From: Squalus acanthias
Lineage: Eukaryota
Reading direction: 5' to 3'
NCBI GenBank assembly: GCA_030390025.1
Contig: CM059432.1
Location: forward strand, 72,914,001 to 72,978,000
DNA: 64,000 bases
Below the pieces are notes generated by a model, which worked only from the letters and a program-made list of their open reading frames with translations, was not told the origin of the DNA and did no database searches. The translations under genes were made by a program, and so were the position numbers. Shown piece by piece: positions 7,198 through 64,000 of this stretch. How positions within the stretch are numbered: position 1 is the first letter of the stretch; each line of letters begins with the position of its first letter.

Positions 7198-7958
7198 GGG
7201 GGAAAAATTCAGCTGCTTGCGCCTCCCGTTAGCGCCTTAAGAGGGCGCTAATGGGGCGTAAAGCAGCTAACGCCCGGGCGCAGCGCCGCCCACGCCTCCC
7301 GAAAAATTTAGTGGGAGGTTAGCGGCGGCGGCAGCCGGTAGCGCCCTGTGGCGCTGCGCCGCCGGCGATGACGTCATCGCCGTGCGCAGCACCCCGCTCG
7401 CGCCCCGGCCGTGATCTTCAGTCGCGCCCCCTGATTTACCGCCAGACGCTATGTCCGACGGGTTCAGGGAGGCGTACGTGCGGCCGGGGCGGCGATATTT
7501 AAAGCGGAGGTGGCAGACGGCCATTTTTGTTGCTGGCCGCCTGCCAGCACCTGCCCCCGGCCCCCGTGAAGCCCCCCCACCGTGAAGTGCCGGCTGCGTT
7601 CCAAGAGCCCGGCACTTCTCTTGAGTGCCGGGCTCTTTTGCCGGCACTCCCGATCCCTGGGGGCCCAGCTGGGCCCCGGTTCGCGCTGCGCAGGGTCCCT
7701 CCCCTTTAAGAAGGGGAGGAAGGCCTGCAATACCGCGGCGCGACGTGCCGCAGCGCGTGGCGCTGCGGCACGTAGCGCCAGGATATTCACTCGCAGCGCC
7801 CCAAGAGGGATGCGGGCTGCTTCCAGTTGCGCCCCGCTTCCCTCTTGGGGCGCAACCACTGAAGTTCCGGCGTGGGGCCGCTAATTTTTTCGGGGCGCTA
7901 AAAGTCGCGCCCCGGCGAGGTTAGCGCCCCAAATGGGGCGCGACTCAATTTTTACCCC
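7198..7958 (+). mobile_element. GC-rich Harbinger-type MITE, complete
   Basis: TIRs gggggaaaaattcag / ctcaatttttacccc (13/15 match); 3-bp TSD tat/cat; inserted in the CR1 EN coding region; repeated ttagcgcc/ggcgctaa motifs. Confidence 0.85.
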
Positions 7959-23797: not shown

Positions 23798-24290
23798 GTC
23801 TGGGAACACTTCAGCAGCCAGGGGCATTCAGCCTCGGATCTGCGGGTAAGCGTTCTCCAAGGCGGCCTTCGAGATACACGACAGCGCAAAATCATAGAGC
23901 AGAAACTGATAGCCAAGTTCCGCACTCATGAGGATGGCCTCAATCGCGATATCGGGTTCATGTCACGATACAGAACGTGACTTGACATCATGGCCGGTCT
24001 TCCCAGGTGTTTTTTTTTTTAAAAAGGCTAACACAAGAACACAAATTGACAGGATATGCAGCCAGCAGGTGGTTTGACACGTTGGACCCCCTGGGACACA
24101 TCTCATTGTCTTGGCTGTGCTCTTTGTTGCAGGGAATAATGTGAATAGATTTTGTCTGGGTTTAAATTGTGAATTCTGGGAGATTCTCTCATTGCTAACT
24201 TACCTGACGAAGGAGCGAACTGCTTCGAAAGCTTGTAAAATTAAATAAATCAGTTGGACTATAACCTGGTGTTGTGCGACTTCTCATTTC
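23798..24290 (+). mobile_element. Penelope-like element, 5'-truncated (GIY-YIG C-terminus, 3'UTR, pLTR)
   Basis: EHFSSQGHSASDLRVSVLQGGL...HEDGLNRD matches 26010-26187; terminal repeat with a hammerhead. Confidence 0.9.
24200..24238 (+). ncRNA. Minimal type I hammerhead ribozyme (PLE family 1 variant)
   Basis: ttac-CTGACGA-a-ggagc(gaact)gcttc-GAAA-gctt-gtaa. Confidence 0.85.
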
Positions 24291-24371
24291 TGTATAATAA
24301 GGCAAGGATAGTGAATATCCTAAACCCAACACTCTGGTCTTAAAAAGAATTGTCAAGGCTACTTCAATTGT

Positions 24372-24715
24372 TCAGCTTGTTCAGTGAGTAGCTGAGCCAA
24401 AGAGACCAGGTTCGATCCCTGGTCTGTGCTGAATTAACTGATCTCAGCCCAGGTGGTGGTAGAGAAGAAATGCCTGGAGTTTCCACTCCTGATTGCTATG
24501 CAGTGATTCTTCCTGGAAGTGGAAGTGTTTGGACATCAATTGGGACAAGATCTGGCTCGGCTGTAATGGCCTACGCTGTCAAATAGCCTACTATTCAGGC
24601 TCACACATGAACAATGACCACTTAGACAAGGTACTGGAGGGTTAATGGTACCTATGGCACCAAACCCTTGCAAGGAGTTAAAGCCGTCAGGACAGGAGGG
24701 GAGGGGGGGGGGGGA
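24372..24715 (+). mobile_element. LF-SINE-like SINE
   Basis: B-box ggttcgatccc; 3' region gaccacttagacaaggtactggaggg...caggacaggagggg resembles LF-SINE. Confidence 0.55.
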
Positions 24716-25638
24716 GAAAGCTCGTCATAAATAGATATTCTTACAGTCTCAATATTCTAATTTAATTGCCATTACATTGTTTTAACCTTAATGATGTGTG
24801 GTACTTATGTGTTAATGGTGCTACATGATTTGTGCACTGCGCCCTTAAGGAAGGGATAGGGATAAGAAAATACAAATCACGCAGCATGTGTGACAGCACA
24901 GTACTAAAACATTTTTACTGTTTCCATATTCAACTTTTTAAAATTAACACTACAACATCAAGAGGCCTCTCTCACCTTGATAGCATCACAAACAGCATTC
25001 ATGCTGTTACAGGTTTTTATGATAATATTGTGCAATCAAAAGGGATATTGAGGTCATTATAATCTGTCCCTGGCACAAGTTCATAGCAGTGCTAAAGTCT
25101 ACTGGAAGTAGTATTAAAATGAAATTTTAAATATTGATCTGGTGGTGCATAATTCCATACTGTAATGTAAGATATGTTTCTGCTATCCAGGTATTAAGAA
25201 TTACTTTGTATCAGTGCTAAATGGGATACTGAGAATAAGATCCTGCCCTATGTGTTAGGACAGATGTAAACAAATGAAACTGTGGACTTAATGGTCTTGA
25301 TTTATCTTAAAATTTCTGCCTGTTTTAAGGCAGATTTGGGAATCCCAATTTTCCTATGTTTTGAAGAAGATGAGGAGGAGGAGGATATGGAAGAAGCTAG
25401 ATTGGAGGCTCTTAAAGTGAGCCATCACAGAAAACGTTTGTTTCTTCTATTTAGATACCCATTCAACAGGGTTTACAGACCAAGAAGGTCTGACTTAGTT
25501 TTCTCAGAAGACTGAGCTTGCCCTTGGAGGTTTCTGGGAAGATTTGTCAGCAGCTGGCTGAAGACTAGCAGCGCACTTCCACCAGGAGAACAGTATTATC
25601 TGTACCAGTCAAAATCACCACTGCCTTGAATTTCTTTG

Positions 25639-26631
25639 ATGTGGAGATGCCGGTGTTGGACTGGGGTGGACAAAAGTGAGAAGTCGCACAACACCAGGTT
25701 ATAGTCCAACAGCTTTAAGGAGTTACCCAGCTTTCAGGAGAACAGCGACCACGACACCACACAACCCTGCCACGGCAACCTCTGCAAGACATGCCAGATC
25801 ATCAACACAGATACCATCATCACACGTGAGGACACTACCCACCAGGTACATGGTACATACTCATGTGACTCGGCCAACGTTGTCTACCTCATACGTTGCA
25901 GGAAAGGATGGCCCGGAGCATGGTACATCGGCGAGACCATGCAGACACTGCGACAACGTATGAACGGACACCGCGCAACAATCGCCAGGCAGGAGTGTTA
26001 CCTCCCAGTCGGGGAACACTTCAGCAGTCAAGGACATTCAGCCTCCGATCTTCGGGTAAGCATTCTCCAAGGCGGCCTTCGAGACACACGACAACGCAAA
26101 ATCATCGAGCAGAAACTGATAGCCAAGTTCCGCACCCATGAGGATGGCCTCAACCGGGATCTTGGGTTCATGTCACGCTACATGTAACCCCACATGACGT
26201 AGAGTCATCCAGACTCGAGTCGTCGCTGGCTTGTTCTCTCTACACAGATGCGGCCTGCTGTAATTTCCAGCAAAAAAAGTAAAAAATCTTTTTGTTTTCC
26301 ATACAGACTCCAGCAGCTGCCACATTTGACCCATTGTGACCCCACCTCATTGTCTTGTTGTATTTTGCTATCGTCTTTGATGTAATGTCTTCCTGACTGA
26401 CCTGGTCGGACACCATCCACACCTTTGATTGCCATGATTGTCTCTCTGCCAAGGTGTGATAAAGGGCAGTTAGAAAGATTAACTGTAGTCGTCTGGCAGT
26501 GTTCTCTGACTATTTATGCTGTGCCCATATGTATTTCTTCACTTCACCTGACGAAGGAGCAGCGCTCCGAAAGCTTGTGATTTCAAATAAAGCTGTTGGA
26601 CTATAACCTGGTGTTGTGCGACTTCTCACTT
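25639..26631 (+). mobile_element. Penelope-like element with inverted partial pLTR at the 5' end and a 13-bp TSD
   Basis: Inverted pLTR 25639-25717; ORF PCHGNLCKTC...NVVYLIRC..AWYIGETMQTLRQRMNGHR (GIY-YIG) ending at 26187; TSD ttgaatttctttg at 25626-38 and 26632-44. Confidence 0.93.
26544..26580 (+). ncRNA. Minimal type I hammerhead ribozyme (PLE family 1)
   Basis: tcac-CTGACGA-a-ggagc(agc)gctcc-GAAA-gctt-gtga. Confidence 0.9.
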
Positions 26632-27199
26632 TTGAATTTCTTTGCAACTGGATCCTTCCACGTGGCATCTGGTGGTCTTTGACACATGAGGTAGGCAGTA
26701 ACTCACCATTGTATAAAGAAGATCACTTATGCCCTCTTCAGGTGGGATGCACAGTTCATTTCTTTCTTAATGAACAAGATAAAGAGAGAGCTATCCAGTT
26801 CTACACACTGACAAGGCTGAAGGAGCAATTGAAAGAAAACATACGGCGCTGAAAGCCCTATATGACAACCTCTTAAGTTTTATGAATAGGAAACGTTTTC
26901 ATTCAATGAATGTGCAGCTTGTGTGCGATGCCAATCACCTTATCTGCACGTTAATGTTGCTACCTAGAAAGCTATCATCATGCTTTCATCATGCATTTTA
27001 TACTGTCACCCAAAGTCAACACTAACCCCATTGAGTTACAATAGTAGCATGTTAGCATCATTGAGTACTAAATTGTATTATTAGTAAAGAAACATCACAG
27101 ATGGATTGTGGCATAGCTCTGTCTGGTGCTCTTCTGGCGTACAATGGAATCAGTTTTAGTTTAAGGAGCTGTGCTCTTCTGCAAATCTTTAGCAACATT

Positions 27200-30764: not shown

Positions 30765-31641
30765 ATAATAATCTTTTATGTGGCACCTTATCGAATGCCT
30801 TTTGGAAATCCAAATGTACTACATCCATTGGTTCCCCTTTATCTACCCTGTTAGTTACATCCTCAAAAAACTCTAATAAATTTGTCAAACACAATTTCCC
30901 TTTCATAAAACCATGTTGACTCTGCCTAATCATGTTATGATTTTCTAAGTGCCCTGATACCACTTCCTTAACAATGGATTCCAGCATTTTCCCGACAACT
31001 GATGTCAGGCTAACTGGCCTGTAGTTCCCTGTTTTTTCTCTCCCTTCCTTCTCGAATAGCGGTGTTACATTTGCGCCCTTCCAAAGTGTTGGGACCATTC
31101 TAGAATCTAGGGAATTTTGGAAGATCAAAACCAATGTATCCACTATCTCTTCAGCCACCTCTTTTAGAACCCTGGGATGTAGACCGTCAGTTCCAGGGGA
31201 TTTGTCGACTTTTAGAACAAAGCCACTGGCCTAAAAATTCGTTAAGGCCGGTTTTGTAGAAAAAATGGCGGCTGCCTGCTTCCGGCATGGGACACAGTGG
31301 CCTCCATTTTGGTAAGGGTCATAGCGCTTACGTTGACAGTGCTGGCCCTTAAATTTAAATAAACAGATCGTGATGTCAATCGGCATGCAACTGCTAATTT
31401 TGACATTTTCGCTCTCCATTAGGCTGTGTCCTAACCACACACAGGAAAGCATGTGTGAAGCAGCCCTGCAGAGATGCTGTCAGTGCTTCTTAAAGAGACA
31501 GTTTGGATTTCAGCTTTTGGACTTTTAAATATTTTATTGAAGTAGTGGCTTGGTGCAATAGATTTTAAAAGTTCTTAAAGTGTGCAGGGAGTGCTGCTGG
31601 ACACTTGCAAGGCTTCAGATGGTAAAAGAAGGCCTGTGAGA

Positions 31642-31786
31642 AGACAGAAAATGCTGGAAATACTCAGCAGGTCAGGCAGCTTCCGTGGAGAGAGAAACAG
31701 AGTTCATGTTTCAGGTCGAGATGCTGCCTGACCTCCTGAGTACTCCCAGCATTTTCTGCTTTTATTTCAGATTTCCAGCATCCACT
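31642..31786. mobile_element. PLE family 2 pLTR fragments in inverted arrangement
   Basis: cagaaaatgctggaaatactcagcaggtcaggcagc... followed by its inverted copy gctgcctgacctcctgagtactcccagcattttctg; only the 3' half of the hammerhead remains. Confidence 0.75.
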
Positions 31787-35400: not shown

Positions 35401-36082
35401 TTCAACAACTCTTGGAAACCAACGCCCCTCCGGAACCTTTTCCCCTTCACTTTCCTCTGACCCTATCCCTCTTCCAATCTCACCCCCTGCCGTGTTTTCA
35501 CTATCCCCTCTGACCTTCCCCTCTCTGACCCCGAACGATCAGTCCTCAGCAAAGGCCTGAGCTTCATCCCCTTACGTCCCAACCGCAATGAATTTCGAGC
35601 TCGGCACGATGCTGAGCTCTTTTTCCGTCGCCTTCGTCTCCGTGTCCACTTCTTTGGCCAGGAGTCTTCCCCCCGCACAACTGACACATTCTCCCGTTTT
35701 CAGAATTCTCGTTCTACCTGGACCCCTCCCTCTGGCCTCTCACCCTCTCTAGATCTTTTCATTGCGTACTGCCGACGTGACATCGGCCGTCTCAATTTCT
35801 CTGCTCCTCTCACTCACTCCAACCTACCTCCCTCTGAACTTGCAGCACTCCGTTCTCTCAGATCCAACCCCAACCTTGTCATTAAACCTGCTGACAAGGG
35901 TGGCGCTGTTGTTGTTTGGTGAACCAACCTCTACCTTGCGAAGGCTAAATGCCAACTCTCTGACATCTCCTCCTACCTCCCCCTGGACCGTCCATGACCC
36001 CACTACCAAACATCAAGCCATCGTTTCCAAGACTGTCACTGACCTCATCTCCTCGGGAGATCTTCTCTCCACAGCCGCCAAT
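35401..36082 (+). mobile_element. PLE ORF fragment (N-terminal region up to the DKG motif)
   Basis: Plus strand reads VFTIPSDLPLSDPERSVLSKGLSFIP...FFRRLRL...SNL..SELAALRSLRSNPNLVIKPADKGGAVVVW. Confidence 0.85.
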
Positions 36083-42960: not shown

Positions 42961-45338
42961 TACAAGACATTTCTTCAAACAGAACCTACAAAGCCAGTAA
43001 TATGTGTCATGGTGGTGTGCTGGAATGTCGGCATATGATTGAGTGAGTGAATGAGTGAGTAGAGTAGAGGAAAAGTAATAGAAAAAGGATAATACTAGTC
43101 TAGAACTTCGGGGAGACCTCCAGTACTATCCACTCCTTCTATGCTGAGAAATCTCTGATCAAATTTACGCAATGGTCTAAAATTAGGGGGCCATGATTTG
43201 CAAGCAGTGAAGTAATGTTGAGATGTTGGAGGTTTGTAGAGCACATTGAACGAGACACATGTGTCCATCTATATCCCAGCTTGTGAATGAGTAAATCAAC
43301 AGGCATCATGCAGGTAGATTGTGTTGCAAGGTTGGCTTATGGATTCACCTTTTCAATTAGTAATGTGCCCACAGTTCCTATTTGAAGTAGCAGTATTCAG
43401 AATATACTCTGCTGCAGTAGGGACATGAATATGGACCTTCAAAAGACCTATTTCTGAGGGCTTAGCATGCAGCCTCAGTCATAACAGGGTGCGAGGAAAA
43501 TCTTTGTGGCATGCATAATTTGCCCATCCACAAGGCAGTGCATGATGAGAGCAAACTTGAATGGAGGAGAAACCCCCCTAACTTTAGGCCATTGTGTAAA
43601 TTACCTCATGGGCTGCCTCTGCATACTTCCTGATCATCCTTAACCATGTGCATCAAATTAATTGCTCACGTGTCTGAGTGATATGTTCTAAGTGAAGCAG
43701 TCTGCAGTTGCTGCCGTAACACAGCTTAGAAACCAGTAAATAGTAGTTAAGTCAACAATATCAAGCTAAACAATACTACCACATGGATTCAATACTATAA
43801 TACCGACGATAACACTTCATGATGGGAGTAATTTTGTAATGCACGCTAAAACTAGGTAAAATTTGCAGTCCATAGCACTCGTGAAATTACTCACTCATAC
43901 GCACAAATACTGTGTGCGTTAATATAACACCAATGATAATTTCCTGACTAAGGATGATGAGTTTGGGAAATGGAAATGTCTCACTGGTACTGTTCAGAGA
44001 TTGGTGTGAAGGCACTTTTGGGTTGAATTTGCACTGTGCGATATTAGTAACTAATTCCTTTGACTGCCATTTTAACAAAGACACTCATCTGGTTAATTAC
44101 TTCATTAGAATGTATTCACCACTAATATCGTACAGCACGATTCCTACCCTAATGTTGGGGCAGAATAGAGGGAGCAATAGACTATACCATATCTGACCTG
44201 GGAGTGTTTGATGCTGACACTGGTGGATAGCTGAAATGGGAAAGTGTTCTATTCTCCAGCACTAACCTCCCTCACTTTAATGAGCACAAAAAGAAGAAAA
44301 GAATTCTCATTGTGATGGGAACGTTATGGTTTGCTTTTGTTTCTGATCATCCAATCGTATTTTTTTTAAGAGTTTTCTAATGAGTTGCAGTAAGCAGGTC
44401 AATAATATATACTGGCCCACTTACCCACACATTTCCAGAAATTGCTAATGTGAATGATTTTATATAATTTACTGTAAGTTGGTTTGGACTATGTTTTTTA
44501 TATCAGCACGATAATACAAAATTGATCATCCAGCAGAAAGAAAACATTGATTATTAATGCTTTCACATCATTGGCTAAGGTTTAAGGTTTTTAGTACTAA
44601 CTTTTGTAGTAATTATTTTAACTATAGTCTACTTGTTTATCTATATGCTACTGGCTTAAATGGCAAAAAGGCTATTTTCAGAAACCTTTGATAACCATTT
44701 GTAGCAGTTTTTTGTAGTTTGCATAGAACTGCTGCAAACTGCGGTTTTCTCTTACATGAGGTGACTAACAGCAATACCATACTGTGTGTAAAACATGTTA
44801 TTCTTATACCTTTAAACCACCTACGTACTTCCTGTGTTTCTTATCAGCAGAGGAATCAGTCATGAACTGACATTTCAGTTTTTTAAACTTTGTAAAACTG
44901 ACAGCAAAAAACAGAGAAAAGAGGCAAGTGGAGTTGACAGCATCTTTGCTGCCGTCGGACTTGATAAAAGGAGAGTCCCCAGGCTGCCCCTAGAACTGAC
45001 AATCCAAAAGTGGTGCCCAATTGTTTTGTAACAGCTGGCAAGCAACAGGGTGTTAACCTGATTCATGGAAATGGCAGGTAGTTCCAGGAATGTTGCCAGT
45101 TACAGCTGTTAAAGAATAAACAGCAAGTCAAAGCTAATCCTCACAATATTAATCATTTTTTTCCTTGACAGCCAGTCAATACTTTACTTCTGCTAACTGC
45201 AAGACAAATATAGGTTGTCAAGTTATAACTTGGCTTTACTGTTTTACATGCAGACTACTTACCTGTACTTGGTACAGAGCTAGAAAACAGACACTTCCCC
45301 ACCCCCTATCCAGTAATGCAACATCCCAGAACTGGGAA

Positions 45339-45420
45339 GAAGGAGCAGCGCTCCGAAAGCTTGTGATTTCAAATAAAGCTGTTGGACTATAACCTGGTGT
45401 GGTGCGACTTCTCACAATTG
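45339..45420 (+). mobile_element. PLE family 1 pLTR fragment (hammerhead 5'-truncated)
   Basis: gaaggagcagcgctccgaaagcttgtga...cttctcaca; direct repeat tgggaagaa at 45333-41 and 45419-27. Confidence 0.9.
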
Positions 45421-45776
45421 GGAAGAAAAGGGGAGCTTTTTTTTTAATTAACTTTTTTTCCACAAAGTCTGAACCCATCCTAATTTGTTCAAATATATTA
45501 TTTTGTGTCTAGTATAATTTCCTAGGATCACACTGTATTTATCCTTTGCATTCTTTTAAAGGTTCTTCATTAGCTCAGTACTAAATCAATTTATTATGTT
45601 TATGTTTTGTCAATGTCATCAAAACCAAAGGTCCTAAATTGTCACACAGTTTGCCCAAACCAAAGGATTTCAAACATTTTTAGTCACGATGTTAATACTA
45701 CGATAGGACCCCTCTTTAGAATTTTTTCACCGTTATGTTATCATCTAATTTTCTCCTTTTTTTCTGCTATCACCAG

Positions 45777-49725: not shown

Positions 49726-49822
49726 AACAACAGAAAACGCTGGAAAAACTCAGCAGGCCAGGCAGCATCCGTGGAGAGAGAAAGAGAGTTAACGTTTCAG
49801 GTCGATGACCTTTCGTCAGAAC
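49726..49822 (-). mobile_element. PLE family 2 pLTR insertion with a 5-bp TSD
   Basis: TSD gtgac at 49721-25 and 49823-27; homologous to 31645-31719. Confidence 0.85.
49788..49822 (-). ncRNA. Minimal type I hammerhead ribozyme (PLE family 2)
   Basis: Minus strand: gtt-CTGACGA-a-aggtc(atc)gacct-GAAA-cgtt-aac. Confidence 0.85.
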
Positions 49823-52800
49823 GTGACCCCTGGTCCTCCCTAACCCATTTAATTGGAACAAACTGTCAACTGGAAAACAATCTATTCCCTTTAGCATCTT
49901 ATAAACCTCAATCAGATCACCTCTAAGTCTACGCTTCTCTAAAGTGTAGAGTCCCAACTCTTTTAGCCTATCTTGATAACTAAGATGCTTTATACTGGGG
50001 ATTAGACTAATGGCCCTCCTCTGCACCCTTTCCAAAGCCTCAATATGTTAATAGCTAACCTGCCTCTCCAGAGGGGGGTTTACACGCAACCAGCCAAACC
50101 CGCCTGAGTTAAACCTGGAAGACGGTGCTTTGGAGCCACCTTCCGGACGCAAATGTATTTTCGGCCACTTTAACCCCCCCACCTGCACCTAAAGCCATGA
50201 GCTGCTCTGTGGTAAAATTTCCCCCCCCGCCCCCTCACAGCAGCTGAGTCTTACAGTGTAGTCCTGTGGAGTAGCGTAGTCTTGACGTCCAGAGAAGTCC
50301 AGGAATTTGGAAGCCAAATTTGAGCAAAGATTCAGTGCTCACTGATGAAAACAAAGAGCAGGCATAGTCGATGGATGGGCAGTGGGCCCAGGTAACTTTA
50401 AACTTGTAGTTAACTTGTAGTTAGGGCTAAAATTCACCCACTATTAGAGCAAGGGGAACTTAAACAGTGGAAGACAGGAGATTGGGGGAGAAAGGGCAAA
50501 GGATGGCAATGGATGGCTAAGGATAGAGTTGCACACCAACTCTGGGGAGCTGCCAGCCTTGGAGTTATGTCCCATGGCAGATACAGCAGGGAAGTAACGG
50601 CATCAAACCTATGTCCTGCCACTCTGTAGCACTGTACATTTGTGATCTTTTGATAATAATTGACTGCAATAAGATGTTACAGTCCTAAGCAAAGTACCTT
50701 GGCACCTTACTCACTCATGGTAATGTATCCAGAGACCTGGCCCATTTTCAGTTAAAACATTTCTGCTCCAGCCTCAACTTCCAGAAATTAGACATGAGTC
50801 ACAACGTTCTAACAATCAAGCATTACTTTTGAATTCAATGAAAGGGGGTTTATAGAACAGAAAATTGTGGGTGTACCAAGAATTGCATTTCAATATATCA
50901 GAAATGACTGGGGTTAGAATAATTAGACTGACAACCTAAGGAATCAGTGACCTTCTTAGATCTCAGCTCCAACACATACTTCAACCAAAATATCATTATT
51001 ACTAGACAACCGAGGAGACCATTTTATTTAATGGATGTAATGCATGAAAGAACATTAAAGTAGCAGCAACTTCAAATTTGCTACAACTCCTTCTTATTGC
51101 ACAGTGAGATGCCTCAGCTAACATTGGAGCATGTCCTGATAGTTATCAGGAATGAAAGACCCATATGTCTCTGCAGGGGAAGGTGGCACTAAACAGAAAA
51201 CAGGTCACCACTACCAGAGAGGACCTGTTATAATCCACAAAGTGATCCTGTTTGAAGAAAGGGCTGTAATGTTGCAACAACGTGACATCAGAGAGGTGGC
51301 AGGAGGTGCTCAAGTGGGCAAGTCCCTACTGAGGATTCTCTTACCTTCTCTCCCTGCCAATCCTAGTAATTGTCAAAGATTATGTCAACTTTGATGACTG
51401 TCCCTGGCAGATTATGATACAGATAGATACTTACCTTAACTTCATTCTGCATTTGCTTTTATAATTGTCCTTCTTTAAGTCTTCACAGGAACAGCACAGT
51501 AAGTAGATCTGGCACCCTGTCATGATTCCAAGATTGACATGCAGCAACCCAGTTACATCTACCCCAGGGAGATATAGATAAGAGTATTTGGGAAACACTG
51601 AAGTGGAGTCACTGAGCACAGGGGAGCAGGAGCAAAAGTTGCAGGAGAAGGATGAAGAGGAAGCCCCTTGGGTGAGGCAGAGGGCACCTCCTCCAGCAGC
51701 TGCAGGGGCAATAGACTGAGAACTCCAAGGCCATACTTACAAAAGAATAATGATAACAGAGCATGATGGATTGTTGCTGTCACTGGGTGATGTGCCCAGC
51801 AGCTTTCAATGGAAAAGAAAATCAGGCGTGGTGTAAAACGGGCTGCCGATTCGCTATGAACCCATTGTGTGATTTCACCCCTGAAGAGTCCACATTCTGT
51901 TTGTGTGATGTTATGATGCACAGCACATTTAGAATGAGTCACAGCTCTAGGGCCATTTGCGGTGTAGCTCATTATAGCTTTGGCCTTGTTGCCAGTCTTA
52001 GGATCTCTTATGAATGCTTGGACTGCTGCAATACAGGTCTTTGGCTGCATTGTGGACAGACTCACAGAAGAGGTTGCTTAAACCAGGAGGGACATAATGG
52101 TTACCTGTTCAAAGCCACTCCCATCATGGCATCTGTCAACTCAGATCGACAGACAGTGGCAGAGAGGATCAGACAGTGGATGTTGATGCTGTCTCCAGAA
52201 GGCTCTACTTCAACAGCTATCAACCTAACCCCTTCACTACACAGGGACCTGAAAGCAGGCAGGGCCAGGTTGTTCCTGCAGCAGCAGTTGAACTGCAGCT
52301 TGAAGCTGGCCCATCTGATGTGTAGAGCTCACAGAGATCGAGAGCCACCACAGTCCAGGACCTTGCTCCCATCTTCCTGGTTTTCTCCTGCCTCAGGGGA
52401 ACCATTTAGATAAAGCACCAGACTAGTTAACCATGCACAAAAGACACCCACTGTTAGAAACGTGAAGCACTGTGGTGGAAAGAATTAAGAATTAGATGCT
52501 TGTGCAATAAATTTGTTGGCTGCAAATTATGCTTTGTGCAAAGCCCCATTATTGTTACTGGGAGTTGAGGTTATTGTAGTAGGTCGAATGATAGTAAGAG
52601 GGACTGGATGGATTCAGAATTGGTTTTCCAAAGATGTCTTTATTGTAGAAGAAGATAAAGGATGGAATGTAGGGGTTCTACTGGATGATGCAGTAACTGG
52701 AAGGTTTCCAGGATGAGATTTCTCTGCATGCTTCGGCCATTAGAAGCCTTTCTTCTCTCTGGCCTGTTTGGAGCCTTGTCTTCCTCAACTACCATATTAT

Positions 52801-61046: not shown

Positions 61047-62115
61047 GTCTGGAAGTAATGAACAAAAAATACTTCAGCACCAGCCAGACTACTCCCTGTA
61101 GACTATTCAAACTTTAGGCAATTATGGGAAATTTCCAAAAACACATGCAATTGCACCAGCAGTCGGAAGAAATAATCCAGCAACTAACTAGTAAGTAGCT
61201 TGTGATTCCTTTAAATAGCGTTGGTGGGGGGTCCATCATGCCGTTTAATGTTGTGTTCAGTTGTGTGAGGTTAAGACAGGGCGTAGGCTGTAGCATGGCA
61301 TTTGAAAATGGCAGTGTTGGCGTCAAATCAGTGTTGCACAATGACTGACATTATAATCTGCCTGCTCTGCATGCTGCCGGCAGTCATTTGGTGCACGCAC
61401 AAACCCCTTTACCAAGATGGTGTCCGGCGTACAATGTTGTGAAGAATAGTGGAAGGCCAGAGGATTGGGAAATTTTTAAAAACCAGCAAAGGACGACTAA
61501 AAAAAATGATAAAGAGAGAGAAGCTTATGAGAGTAAGCTAGCAAGAAATATTAAAAGACAGTAAGAGCTTCTACAGTTATATAAAAAGGAAGAGAGTAGC
61601 TAAAGTAAACGTTGGTCCCCTAGAGGATGAGTCTGGGGAATGAATAATGGGAAACAGGGAAATAGCGGAGACTTTGAACAAATATTTTGTATCGGTCTTC
61701 ACGGTAGAAGACACTAAAAGCATCCCAATAATGGATAATCAAGGGGCTATTGGGGTGGGGGTGGGGGTGGGGAACTTAAAACAATCACTATCACTAGATA
61801 AAAAGTACTAGGCAAACTAATGGGACTAAAGGTGGACAAGTCTCCTGGACCCGATGGCCTGCATCCTAGGATCTTAAAAGGGGTGGCTGCAGAGATAGTG
61901 GATGCATTGGTTGTAATCTACCAAAATTCCCTGGATTCTGGAGAGGTCCCAGCGGATTGGAAAACCGCAAATGTAATGCCCCTATTTAAGAAAGGAGGGA
62001 GACAGAAAGCAGGCAACTATAGACCAGTTAGCCTAACATCTGTCATTGGGAAAATGCTGGAGTCCATTATTAAGGAAGTGGTAGCAGGACATTTAGAAAA
62101 TCATAATATAGTCAA

Positions 62116-62320
62116 ATGTGAGAAGTCGCACAACACCAGGTTATAGTCTAACCGCTATATTTGAAATCACAAGCTTTCGGAGCGCTGCTCCTTCGTCAGG
62201 TGAAGGAGCAGCGCTCCGAAAGCTTGTGATTTCAAATAAAGCTGTTGGACTATAACCTGGTGTTGTGCGACTTCTCACATTTGTCCACCCCAGTCCAACA
62301 CCGGCATCTCCACATCATGG
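62116..62320 (-). mobile_element. Mini PLE insertion: pLTR plus inverted pLTR with tail; 13-bp TSD
   Basis: TSD ataatatagtcaa at 62103-15 and 62321-33; roughly 85-bp inverted repeat. Confidence 0.92.
62167..62203 (-). ncRNA. Minimal type I hammerhead ribozyme (PLE family 1)
   Basis: Reverse complement is identical to 26544-26580. Confidence 0.9.
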
Positions 62321-64000
62321 ATAATATAGTCAAGCAGAGTCAGCATGGTTTTATGGAAGGGAAATCATGTTTGACAAATCTGCTGGAGTTCTTTGAGGAT
62401 GTAACGAGCAGGGTGGATAAAGGGGAACCAGTAGCTGTCGTGTATTTGGATTTCCAGAAGGCATTCGATAAGGTACCACATAAAAGGTTACTGCACAAGA
62501 TAAGAGCTCACGGTGTTGGGGGTAATATATTAGCATGGATAGAGGATTGGCTAACTAACAGAAAACAGAGAGTCAGAATAAATGGGTCATTTTCAGGTTG
62601 GCAAACTGTAACTAGCGGGGTGCCGTAGGGATCAGTGCTGGGGCCTCAACTATTTACAATCTATATTAATGACTTGGATGAAGGGACCGAGTATAATGTA
62701 GCCAAATTTGCTGATGATACAAAGATAGGTGGGAAAGCAAATTGTATGGAGAACGCAAAGAATCTCAAAAGGGATATAGATAGGCTAAGTGAGTGGGCAA
62801 AAATCTGGCAGATGGTGTAAAATGTGGGAAAATGCGAGGTTATCCACTTTGGTAGGAAAAATAAAAAAAGCAAATTATTATTTAAATGGGGAGAGATTAC
62901 AAAATGCTGAGGTACAGAGGGATCTGGGGGCCCTTGTACATGAATCACAAAAAGTTAGCATGCAGGTACTGCAAGTAATTAGGAAGGCAAATGGAATGTT
63001 GGCCTTTATTGCAAAGGGAATGTAGTATAAAAGTAGGGAAGTCCTGTTACAACTATAGTGAGACCACACCTGGAGTACTGCATACAGTTTTAGTCTCCTT
63101 ATTTAAGGAAGGATATACTTGCATTGGAGGCAGTTCAGAGAAGGTTCACGAGGTTGATTCCGGAGATGAAGGGGTTGTCTTATGAAGAAAGGTTGAGCAG
63201 GTTGGGTCTATACTCATTGGAGTTTAGAAGAATGAGAGGGGATCTTATTGAAACATATAAGATTCTGAAGGGGCTTGACAGGGTAGATGCAGAGAGGATG
63301 TTTCCCCTCGTGGGGGAATTTAGAACTAGGGGACATAATTTCAGAATAAGGGGGCACCCATTTAAAATGGAAATGAGGAGGAATTTCTTCTCTCAGAGGG
63401 TCTTAAATCTTTGGAATTCTCTTCCCCAGAGAGCTGTGGAGGCTGGGTCATTGAATATATTTAAGGTGGAGATAGACAGATTTTTGCATTGTAAGGGAGT
63501 CAAGGGTTATGGGGAGCGGGCAGCGAAGTGGAGTGAAGGCCAAGATCAGATCAGCCATGATCTTATTGAATGGCAGAGCAGGCTCGAGGGGCCAAATGAC
63601 CTACTCCTGCTCCTATGTCTTATGTTCATATGTCTTATGTTGTAAGTGTGCCCACACAGCTTGGACGCCATTTTTGAGCCTTAGGAGGCTGTGTAGCGCC
63701 TAAAAAACTGGCGTTAAAGAGCCCAATTTCCCCCCCAGGTTGCCTAATGTGTTTATATGACATTCTTCTATCCACTATTTTAATGCAGGAGTTAACCTTT
63801 TTAATTTAAATGGTTTAATACCTTGGTTAAAATAGCAAACAAAAAATTGTCATAAGAAAGCATTAAGCATTTGTCTGCTAATATCGCCAACAATAATGTT
63901 TAGGCTGACAGCTGAATCCTTTGGCCCTGAAATTCCTTGTTCATGATGCCAGTAGTTATATTGCGATCATGCCTGTTAGTGTCCTCCAGCATTGATTCCA

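What the first reader, a model, noticed from the sequence alone, without database searches (positions are those of the whole stretch)
24200..26580. Hammerhead ribozyme family 1 in Penelope terminal repeats, with covariation between copies
Seen: intact cores at 24200-24238 (+), 26544-26580 (+) and 62167-62203 (-), and 5'-truncated copies at 45339 and 62202. All follow stem I-CUGACGA-stem II-GAAA-GCUU-stem I. The 24200 copy differs from the others by a compensatory stem I change (ttac/gtaa vs tcac/gtga), a G-U wobble in stem II and a different loop, while the catalytic core is unchanged. Stem III is only the palindrome AAGCUU. Known: PLEs carry minimal type I hammerheads whose palindromic stem III is thought to form in dimers. 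Inference: these are selected self-cleaving RNAs that process PLE transcripts in this genome, and any copy sense to a host intron could cleave pre-mRNA.
Basis: partly seen in the sequence, partly recalled or inferred. Interest (0 to 1): 0.72.

Follow-up and report, generated by a model that had tools for sequence, protein, structure and literature searches.

The report
Penelope hammerheads selected in source elements
These are five of more than 70,000 copies of a known minimal self-cutting RNA motif at the ends of a very abundant jumping gene; the variation between its subfamilies shows the motif was kept intact in the elements that multiplied, but the copies in this window are likely inert and none is shown to sit in a host intron.

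Summary
Observation confirmed at all five coordinates. The motif is the minimal type I hammerhead of a Neptune-type Penelope-like element, a kind published in 2014. The 24200 and 26544 copies belong to two multi-copy subfamilies, so their 'covariation' is a difference between lineages (1-2 events), not between copies. Genome-wide there are 70,661 intact cores. Across 20 recurrent haplotypes 98.9% of stem cells pair, with two compensatory pairs. The U-G wobble outnumbers the C-A mismatch 2,110 to 427 in a symmetric mutation context. The one amplified core change I found is U4C (3,871, against 395 for G5), which is known to be tolerated. Single copies decay neutrally (core 5/583, non-core 14/1,219). 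Only AGCU, not AAGCUU, is conserved. Copy 5' ends pile up 4-9 nt before the ribozyme, not at the cut site (2 of 115), so templates were mostly uncut. No host exon was found in the window, and the fold is not predicted in context; 62167 is locked in a hairpin. Cleavage is untested. This scan noted the same family many times on other DNA of this genome (U4C, start site at the ribozyme, fold-back). Ordinary kind, good population evidence.

The parts
24200..24238 (+). Minimal hammerhead, subfamily B (stem I UUAC/GUAA, G-U in stem II, 5-nt loop); predicted cut between 24234 and 24235
23798..24292 (+). 5'-truncated subfamily B insertion: end of the GIY-YIG ORF, 3' pLTR, hammerhead, short tail; 98% identical to the matching part of the full-length element in L190
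26544..26580 (+). Minimal hammerhead, subfamily A (stem I UCAC/GUGA, 3-nt loop); predicted cut between 26576 and 26577
25639..26631 (+). 5'-truncated subfamily A insertion: inverted long tail (about 25639-25717), GIY-YIG domain to 26187, 3' pLTR, hammerhead, short tail; 13-bp target duplication 25626-25638 / 26632-26644; 97.5% identical to the full-length element in L065
26511..26541 (+). TATA-like motif 37 nt before C3 and Inr-like A 7 nt before C3: predicted transcription start (in subfamily B, 43 and 13 nt before C3)
   Evidence: motifs; 5' ends; function inferred
62167..62203 (-). Intact subfamily A hammerhead sequence, predicted to be zipped into a long hairpin with the opposite arm
   Evidence: -83.3 kcal/mol, z -13; stem I and II probability 0.0
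62116..62320 (.). 205-bp fold-back insertion: minus arm with whole ribozyme and short tail, plus arm from 62202 lacking CUGA with long tail to the ATG; 13-bp target duplication; inserted in a LINE-type RT
45339..45415 (+). Short subfamily A insertion starting inside the ribozyme (no CUGA); candidate 12-bp target duplication with one mismatch

Best explanation
The motif is the minimal hammerhead in the terminal repeat of a very abundant Penelope-like retrotransposon, kept intact in the source elements that multiplied, where it likely cuts slowly, as a protein-assisted dimer, in a minority of transcripts; the copies in this window are truncated insertions that are likely inert. Steps. (1) Shown: full-length elements carry the motif twice, about 3.0-3.2 kb apart, around an RT plus GIY-YIG ORF that starts about 85 nt after the predicted cut. 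(2) Inferred: a TATA/Inr promoter in the pLTR starts the RNA 7-13 nt before C3, so the ribozyme is the first 35-45 nt of the transcript. (3) Inferred from the literature and the conserved AGCU: the 5' and 3' copies of one transcript pair AGCU with AGCU as a 4-bp helix III, swap stem I strands and, helped by the element's protein, cut after position 17. (4) Inferred: the unit-length product would be ligated to a circle, which reverse transcription from the tail can copy for more than one unit and so restore the upstream promoter; this is how selection on catalysis could act on source elements only. (5) Shown: most copies span the cut site and many start at the 5' edge of stem I, so most templates were uncut or religated. 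(6) Shown: after insertion the motif mutates like its neighbours.
For: Full-length elements with two ribozymes: L065 (3,163 nt apart), L190 (3,023), L182 (3,136); RVT_1 above cut-off. 70,661 intact cores; 99,980 exact tail 23-mers. 20 haplotypes seen in 3 or more loci (227 of 336 copies): 178 of 180 stem cells pair, with compensatory changes in stem I (C-G/U-A, U-G intermediate) and stem II (C-G/U-A, U-G intermediate). U-G 2,110 against C-A 427 although TCAC/GTGA and TTAC/GTAA are reverse complements and so share mutation context. U4C 3,871 against any change at G5 395 and at G15.2 513; CCGA is reported not to impair cleavage in PLMVd (PMC9608096, passage). N7 takes all four bases and position 17 only U or C in the first 100 cores. 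5' ends: 32 in the 6 positions 4-9 nt before C3, 31 in the next 50; 2 of 115 at the cut. 3 of 3 full-length elements examined extend beyond the predicted start (17, 144, 275 nt before C3). Protein-assisted cleavage of a PLE hammerhead in vitro (PMC11167929).
Against: No cleavage, circle or start site was observed; the RNA runs offered were contigs only and could not show ends. The active dimer is not the predicted minimum (-19.1 against -28.9 kcal/mol for A; -11.1 against -22.3 for B). Counts are copies, not events: the U-A label needs 2 changes on a 59-row tree and one origin is not excluded, and the U-G excess is mostly one lineage. 45 of the first 100 C-A matches carry C17 against 11 of 100 overall, so the mismatch class is not pure background (by eye). 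The C7U/G8A asymmetry (2,084/530, ratio 3.9) lies within the mutational context effect measured here (2.4, 95% 1.4-4.2). The tail is as invariant as the core, so invariance alone does not show catalysis. Only G5, G8, U4 and G15.2 were counted genome-wide. In the anole element hammerhead mutants did not affect insertion in vitro and no RNA-seq reads ended at the cut; Naiad PLEs multiply without hammerheads (PMC8557442). A comprehensive mutagenesis found low activity for all single mutants of the CUGA region in another hammerhead (PMC9901934), which tempers the U4C argument.
Confidence: 0.7

Rival explanations
1. The motif is kept as a structure or protein-binding site at the 5' end of the RNA (promoter-proximal element, translation or RNP signal), and cleavage is negligible or dispensable.
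For: Templates mostly uncut; motif sits at the predicted start; U4C spread in thousands of copies; mutants did not affect insertion in vitro; tail equally invariant.
Against: What varies (N7, position 17 as U or C, loop II, wobble and compensatory pairs, U4C) matches hammerhead tolerance rather than a DNA motif; C3G/G8C rescue of cleavage in the anole element.
Confidence: 0.2
2. One reading: dispersed copies are active ribozymes that cut host pre-mRNA when sense to an intron.
For: More than 70,000 intact cores, many of which must lie in introns; depletion of tandem retrozymes from introns reported in Xenopus (bioRxiv 2026.07.22.740005, passages).
Against: Monomers inactive and dimers slow in vitro (PMC4209133); stem I probability 0.03 or less in context and 0.0 in the fold-back; no host exon in the window; G5 mutants at background 0.5% with no sign of enrichment. 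The one + strand pair here lies 2.3 kb apart in separate insertions.
Confidence: 0.07
3. The conservation is only shared ancestry in a young family; the covariation is chance.
For: Subfamilies are 83-95% alike; few independent events; the two event-counting measures do not exceed shuffles (229/500).
Against: All 8 further pair types in two stems are standard pairs while loop II and the upstream pLTR diverge in sequence and length (223-372 nt); same architecture across metazoan PLEs.
Confidence: 0.03

Closest known systems
Minimal hammerheads (min-HHR) of metazoan Penelope-like elements, Cervera and De la Pena 2014 (PMC4209133; parts 1-2 of 4 of the text and part 2 of supplement 2 read; supplement 1 not searchable)
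   Same: CUGANGA, one unpaired base, G10.1-C11.1, GAAA, palindromic 15.1-16.1, short helix I, U-rich 5' and AU-rich 3' flanks, both pLTRs, many families with compensatory changes; the lamprey entry has the same UCAC/GUGA helix I and the turtle entry the same GC-U-U junction.
   Different: Copy number (70,661 against about 4,000 in coelacanth and 9,000 in Xenopus); no shark entry found in the searched supplement; amplified U4C lineages.
Poseidon element PAc of Anolis, Frangieh et al. 2024 (PMC11167929; passages and part 2 of the main text read)
   Same: Hammerhead upstream of two RT start sites that define short and long 3' ends (69 short, 46 long of 115 here); unprocessed RNA as main template.
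   Different: In PAc the ORF starts in stem II; here the ATG lies about 85 nt after the cut. This element has the CX4CxxC linker that Poseidon lacks.
Neptune-clade EN+ PLEs (Craig et al. 2021, PMC8557442; passages read)
   Same: RT, CX2-5CxxC linker, C-terminal GIY-YIG with CCHH, direct and inverted pLTRs, tail, hammerhead in pLTR.
   Different: Placement by tree not tested.
Small dimeric PLE hammerheads, Lunse, Weinberg and Breaker (PMC5785218; not held; known only through the review PMC6765202, passages)
   Same: Palindromic very short stem III, dimer cleavage at low rates.
   Different: Could not compare variants; that paper and its supplements may already list this family or the U4C form.
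Metazoan non-LTR retrozymes (PMC7229834 passages; bioRxiv 10.64898/2026.07.22.740005 part 1 of 5 and passages)
   Same: Type I hammerheads in repeats related to PLE pLTRs; a 286-nt two-ribozyme mini-tandem occurs at L066.
   Different: Window copies are not tandem monomers and lack the canonical helix I and loop-loop contact.

Membership tests
PLE minimal hammerhead (min-HHR) | CUGANGA and GAAA boxes, unpaired base after A9, G10.1-C11.1 pair | tested here: met
PLE minimal hammerhead (min-HHR) | Helices I and II supported by compensatory or wobble changes | tested here: met
   (178 of 180 cells; 2 pairs with two-sided change); few independent events
PLE minimal hammerhead (min-HHR) | Self-complementary 15.1-16.1 with no loop, followed by H17 | tested here: met
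   AGCU invariant in 20 of 20 haplotypes; 513 copies with another base at 15.2, 99 of the first 100 keeping C16.2, so no covarying lineage
PLE minimal hammerhead (min-HHR) | Located in both pLTRs of an RT-EN element | tested here: met
   L065, L190, L182
PLE minimal hammerhead (min-HHR) | Self-cleavage, as a dimer | not testable with these tools
   dimer fold is predicted metastable; RNA runs were contigs only
Canonical hammerhead (Rfam models) | Match to an Rfam hammerhead covariance model; stable helix III; loop-loop contact | tested here: not met
   no hammerhead family at E<=1 in the window
EN+ Penelope-like element | Single ORF with RT | tested here: met
   RVT_1 33.5 bits, cut-off 29.6; DKG motif and YIDD seen in translations
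EN+ Penelope-like element | C-terminal GIY-YIG endonuclease with CCHH | tested here: inconclusive
   VVYLI...WYIGET and C,C,H,H seen by eye; no Pfam or PDB hit
EN+ Penelope-like element | 5' truncation, partial tandem and inverted pLTRs, optional tail | tested here: met
   (65 arm pairs)
Neptune clade | CX2-5CxxC linker before the endonuclease | tested here: met
   C-x4-C-x2-C in all translations; feature
Neptune clade | RT phylogeny with reference PLEs | not tested
   no reference PLE proteins fetched
Non-LTR retrozyme | Two or more consecutive non-coding tandem units each with a ribozyme | tested here: not met
   window copies are separate truncated insertions

The most novel reading that the evidence does not exclude
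The hammerhead is the first 35-45 nt of the capped transcript and is a required step of the life cycle: rare, protein-triggered cutting at both copies turns the mRNA into a circle, the only template from which a daughter with an upstream promoter can be made. The 70,000-copy record of this one genome then works as a natural mutational scan of a ribozyme in the germline, with post-insertion decay as its built-in neutral control, and answers the open question whether PLE hammerheads are functional or parasitic.
Probability: 0.25. Interest if true: 0.65.

Novelty: new member of a known kind. Interest (0 to 1): 0.27.

Why it matters
The kind is published, so the finding as written is not new. What it adds is a population test of an open question: the 2021 survey says PLE hammerhead function is unclear and that they may merely parasitise PLEs, and the 2024 biochemistry found cleavage unnecessary for insertion in vitro. 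Here only hammerhead-compatible changes were found amplified, which argues for a constraint on the RNA of source elements, while copy ends argue that most templates are uncut. Two subfamilies, a wobble intermediate and a U4C lineage are ready-made natural variants for a cleavage and retrotransposition assay.

Tried and rejected
Core pattern count and fold z-scores in the window: not beyond chance. Rfam: no hammerhead. C7U against G8A at one CpG as a selection test: 2,084 against 530, rejected as inconclusive because arm-versus-arm differences in 65 inverted pairs give ACG 37/351 and TCG 19/439 (one pair may be counted twice), and only 6 inverted pairs among the first 100 C7U matches share the change (by eye). 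Excess core conservation among single copies: none. Covariation in helix III within this family: none, one AUAU single in 100. A spike of 5' ends at the cut site: not seen. 25333-25419 as a host exon: rejected; the frame runs on past the GT to a stop, no PDB or Pfam hit, and a weak DDE_Tnp_4 match lies on the other side of the insertion (E 0.0055, below cut-off), so transposase debris is likelier. Pfam scan of 150 of 209 ORFs of 62 aa or more in unmasked sequence (all 69 of the window): no host protein in the window; short exons would be missed. RNA evidence: 24 runs, all contigs, RNA status mostly guessed; four laid on the pLTR show the family in four organisms but no ends; splice joints around 24-27 kb remain unexamined. 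cyPhyRNA-seq paper: nothing on PLEs in the passages found. Paper searches 'shark + Penelope + hammerhead ribozyme' (1 review) and 'shark genome + Penelope + Neptune' (0) found no description of this family; subscription papers and Repbase/Dfam are not covered.

Full report
Observation. The reading with standard numbering is stem I (4 bp), C3-A9, one unpaired A, stem II (5 bp, G10.1-C11.1), G12-A14, A15.1 G15.2 C16.2 U16.1, H17, stem I. The predicted cuts are 24234/24235 and 26576/26577. On their own the motifs are not statistically striking and Rfam does not see them; their reality rests on the repeat family.

What carries them. 25639-26631 is a 5'-truncated insertion with an inverted tail, a GIY-YIG-type ORF end, a pLTR and the ribozyme, inside a 13-bp target duplication; 23798-24292 is a shorter insertion of a related element; 62116-62320 is a fold-back; 45339-45415 starts inside the ribozyme. 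Searches of the own genome (3.7 Gb; cartilaginous fish is my inference and the label of earlier notes, not a call result) gave 41 copies identical over 131 nt for 26544 and 40 scored copies at 96-100% for 24200. Full-length elements have the ribozyme twice around one ORF of about 890 codons that starts about 85 nt after the cut. RT passes the Pfam cut-off. The endonuclease motifs, CCHH and the CX4CxxC linker are seen by eye; that linker is absent from Penelope/Poseidon, so the element is Neptune-type by architecture, not tested by tree.

Scale and variation. Exact counts: 99,980 tail 23-mers and 70,661 intact cores, with 0 for reversed controls. In 101 tail matches chosen without regard to the ribozyme, dozens of haplotypes appear. 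Among 336 held copies, 20 haplotypes occur in 3 or more loci (227 copies; the other 90 haplotypes were left out). On these, 178 of 180 stem cells pair; one stem I pair is C-G 12, U-A 6, U-G 2 and the closing pair of stem II is C-G 16, U-A 3, U-G 1. Cell-based measures exceed all 500 shuffles, but the two event-like measures do not (229/500), and on a 59-row tree of the ORF end the U-A state needs two changes with one not excluded. The covariation is real but rests on few events.

Selection tests. Stem I intermediates have the same mutation context on opposite strands, yet U-G has 2,110 copies and C-A 427; most of the excess is one amplified C17 lineage, and the C-A class is itself enriched for C17. 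U4C has 3,871 copies in several lineages, often in both arms of an insertion, against 395 for any change at G5 and 513 at G15.2, both scattered over all backgrounds. U4C is also seen at 5-12% in contigs of three of four other runs. CCGA is reported not to impair a viroid hammerhead, though another study found all single CUGA-region mutants weak. The CpG test (C7U 2,084, G8A 530) failed as evidence because context alone gives 2.4 (1.4-4.2). Among 53 subfamily A copies anchored outside the motif (1 of 54 dropped for an indel), core positions changed 5/583 and others 14/1,219. So the constraint acts on source elements; inserted copies decay neutrally.

Helix III. Position 17 is U or C, so the 6-nt palindrome is not conserved; AGCU is. 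The strand-swapped double hammerhead evaluates to -19.1 (A) and -11.1 (B) kcal/mol, above the co-fold minima. This fits the reported low dimer activity and need for protein.

Is the RNA cut? Reverse transcription starts in the tail, 3' of the cut (69 short and 46 long ends here). A cut template would give copies starting at position 1.1. Only 2 of 115 start within -2..+4. Among 168 copies not chosen for upstream length, 97 extend 60 nt or more, 32 end 4-9 nt before C3, 31 in the next 50 positions and 8 within 3 nt (some loci came from patterns fixing 1-4 upstream bases, and a missing subfamily reference can shorten an extent). A TATA-like motif lies 30 nt before an Inr-like A in both subfamilies. 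I infer that the RNA starts there and is mostly uncut when copied. Three of three full-length elements extend upstream of that start, which needs a multimer or circular template; the circle model is Cervera and De la Pena's proposal and is not shown here.

Host intron. No host exon was identified in the window. An HMG-box gene on the minus strand (TOX family, name recalled) has its last coding exon about 15 kb beyond the window's right end, so the window likely lies downstream of it. In context, stem I pairing is 0.03 or less for 24200 and 26544 and 0.0 for 62167. Pre-mRNA cleavage by these copies is unsupported; a long intron of an undetected gene is not excluded.

Verdict. A new member of a known kind, with unusually strong copy-number evidence that source elements keep a hammerhead-compatible RNA. 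Papers seen: PMC4209133 (half the text, part of one supplement), PMC11167929 (passages, part of main text), PMC8557442, PMC6765202, PMC9608096, PMC9901934, PMC7229834, PMC2377424, PMC8782182, bioRxiv 2026.09.16.752053 (passages), bioRxiv 2026.07.22.740005 (first fifth, passages; supplements closed). PMC5785218 was not available and may list this family. Interest 0.27.

Noticed in passing
window 49782-49824 (-), related piece at 31635-31758: A second hammerhead-like family (CUGACGA, different stem II, GAAA-CGU-U, palindrome ACGU) in a short repeat; the palindrome is kept with swapped bases relative to family 1.
   Followed up: partly
L191-L196, L229-L236; 3,871 genome matches: Amplified lineages with CCGA in place of CUGA, most also with U at 10.5 and often the compensatory A at 11.5.
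   Followed up: yes
window 35461-35922 (+): Fragment of another Penelope-like ORF (IKPADKGG motif), a different family; no Pfam hit.
   Followed up: no
window 25315-25626 and 26783-27022: The subfamily A element sits inside probable PIF/Harbinger transposase debris (weak DDE_Tnp_4 match).
   Followed up: partly
L066:4191-4727 (-): Mini-tandem of 286-nt units, each with an intact ribozyme and the first 110 nt of the ORF; a setting where the dimer could form in cis.
   Followed up: no
L095 and L089, junction of the inverted arms: The first 6 nt before C3 are reiterated two or three times at the 5' junction, as if the RT re-copied the 5' end of its template.
   Followed up: partly
window 25626-26644, 62103-62333, 45330-45427: Target duplications of 13, 13 and about 12 bp.
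   Followed up: partly
L077:3754-4035, L075:5464-6830, L073:about 4757 (all -): Exons of an HMG-box gene (TOX family, recalled) ending about 15 kb right of the window.
   Followed up: partly
arm pairs in 65 insertions: CpG decay after insertion is about 2.4 times faster in ACG than in the other three contexts, which can mimic selection in repeat-based tests.
   Followed up: yes
window 7200-7950: CpG-rich 750-bp stretch, masked as repetitive; not examined.
   Followed up: no
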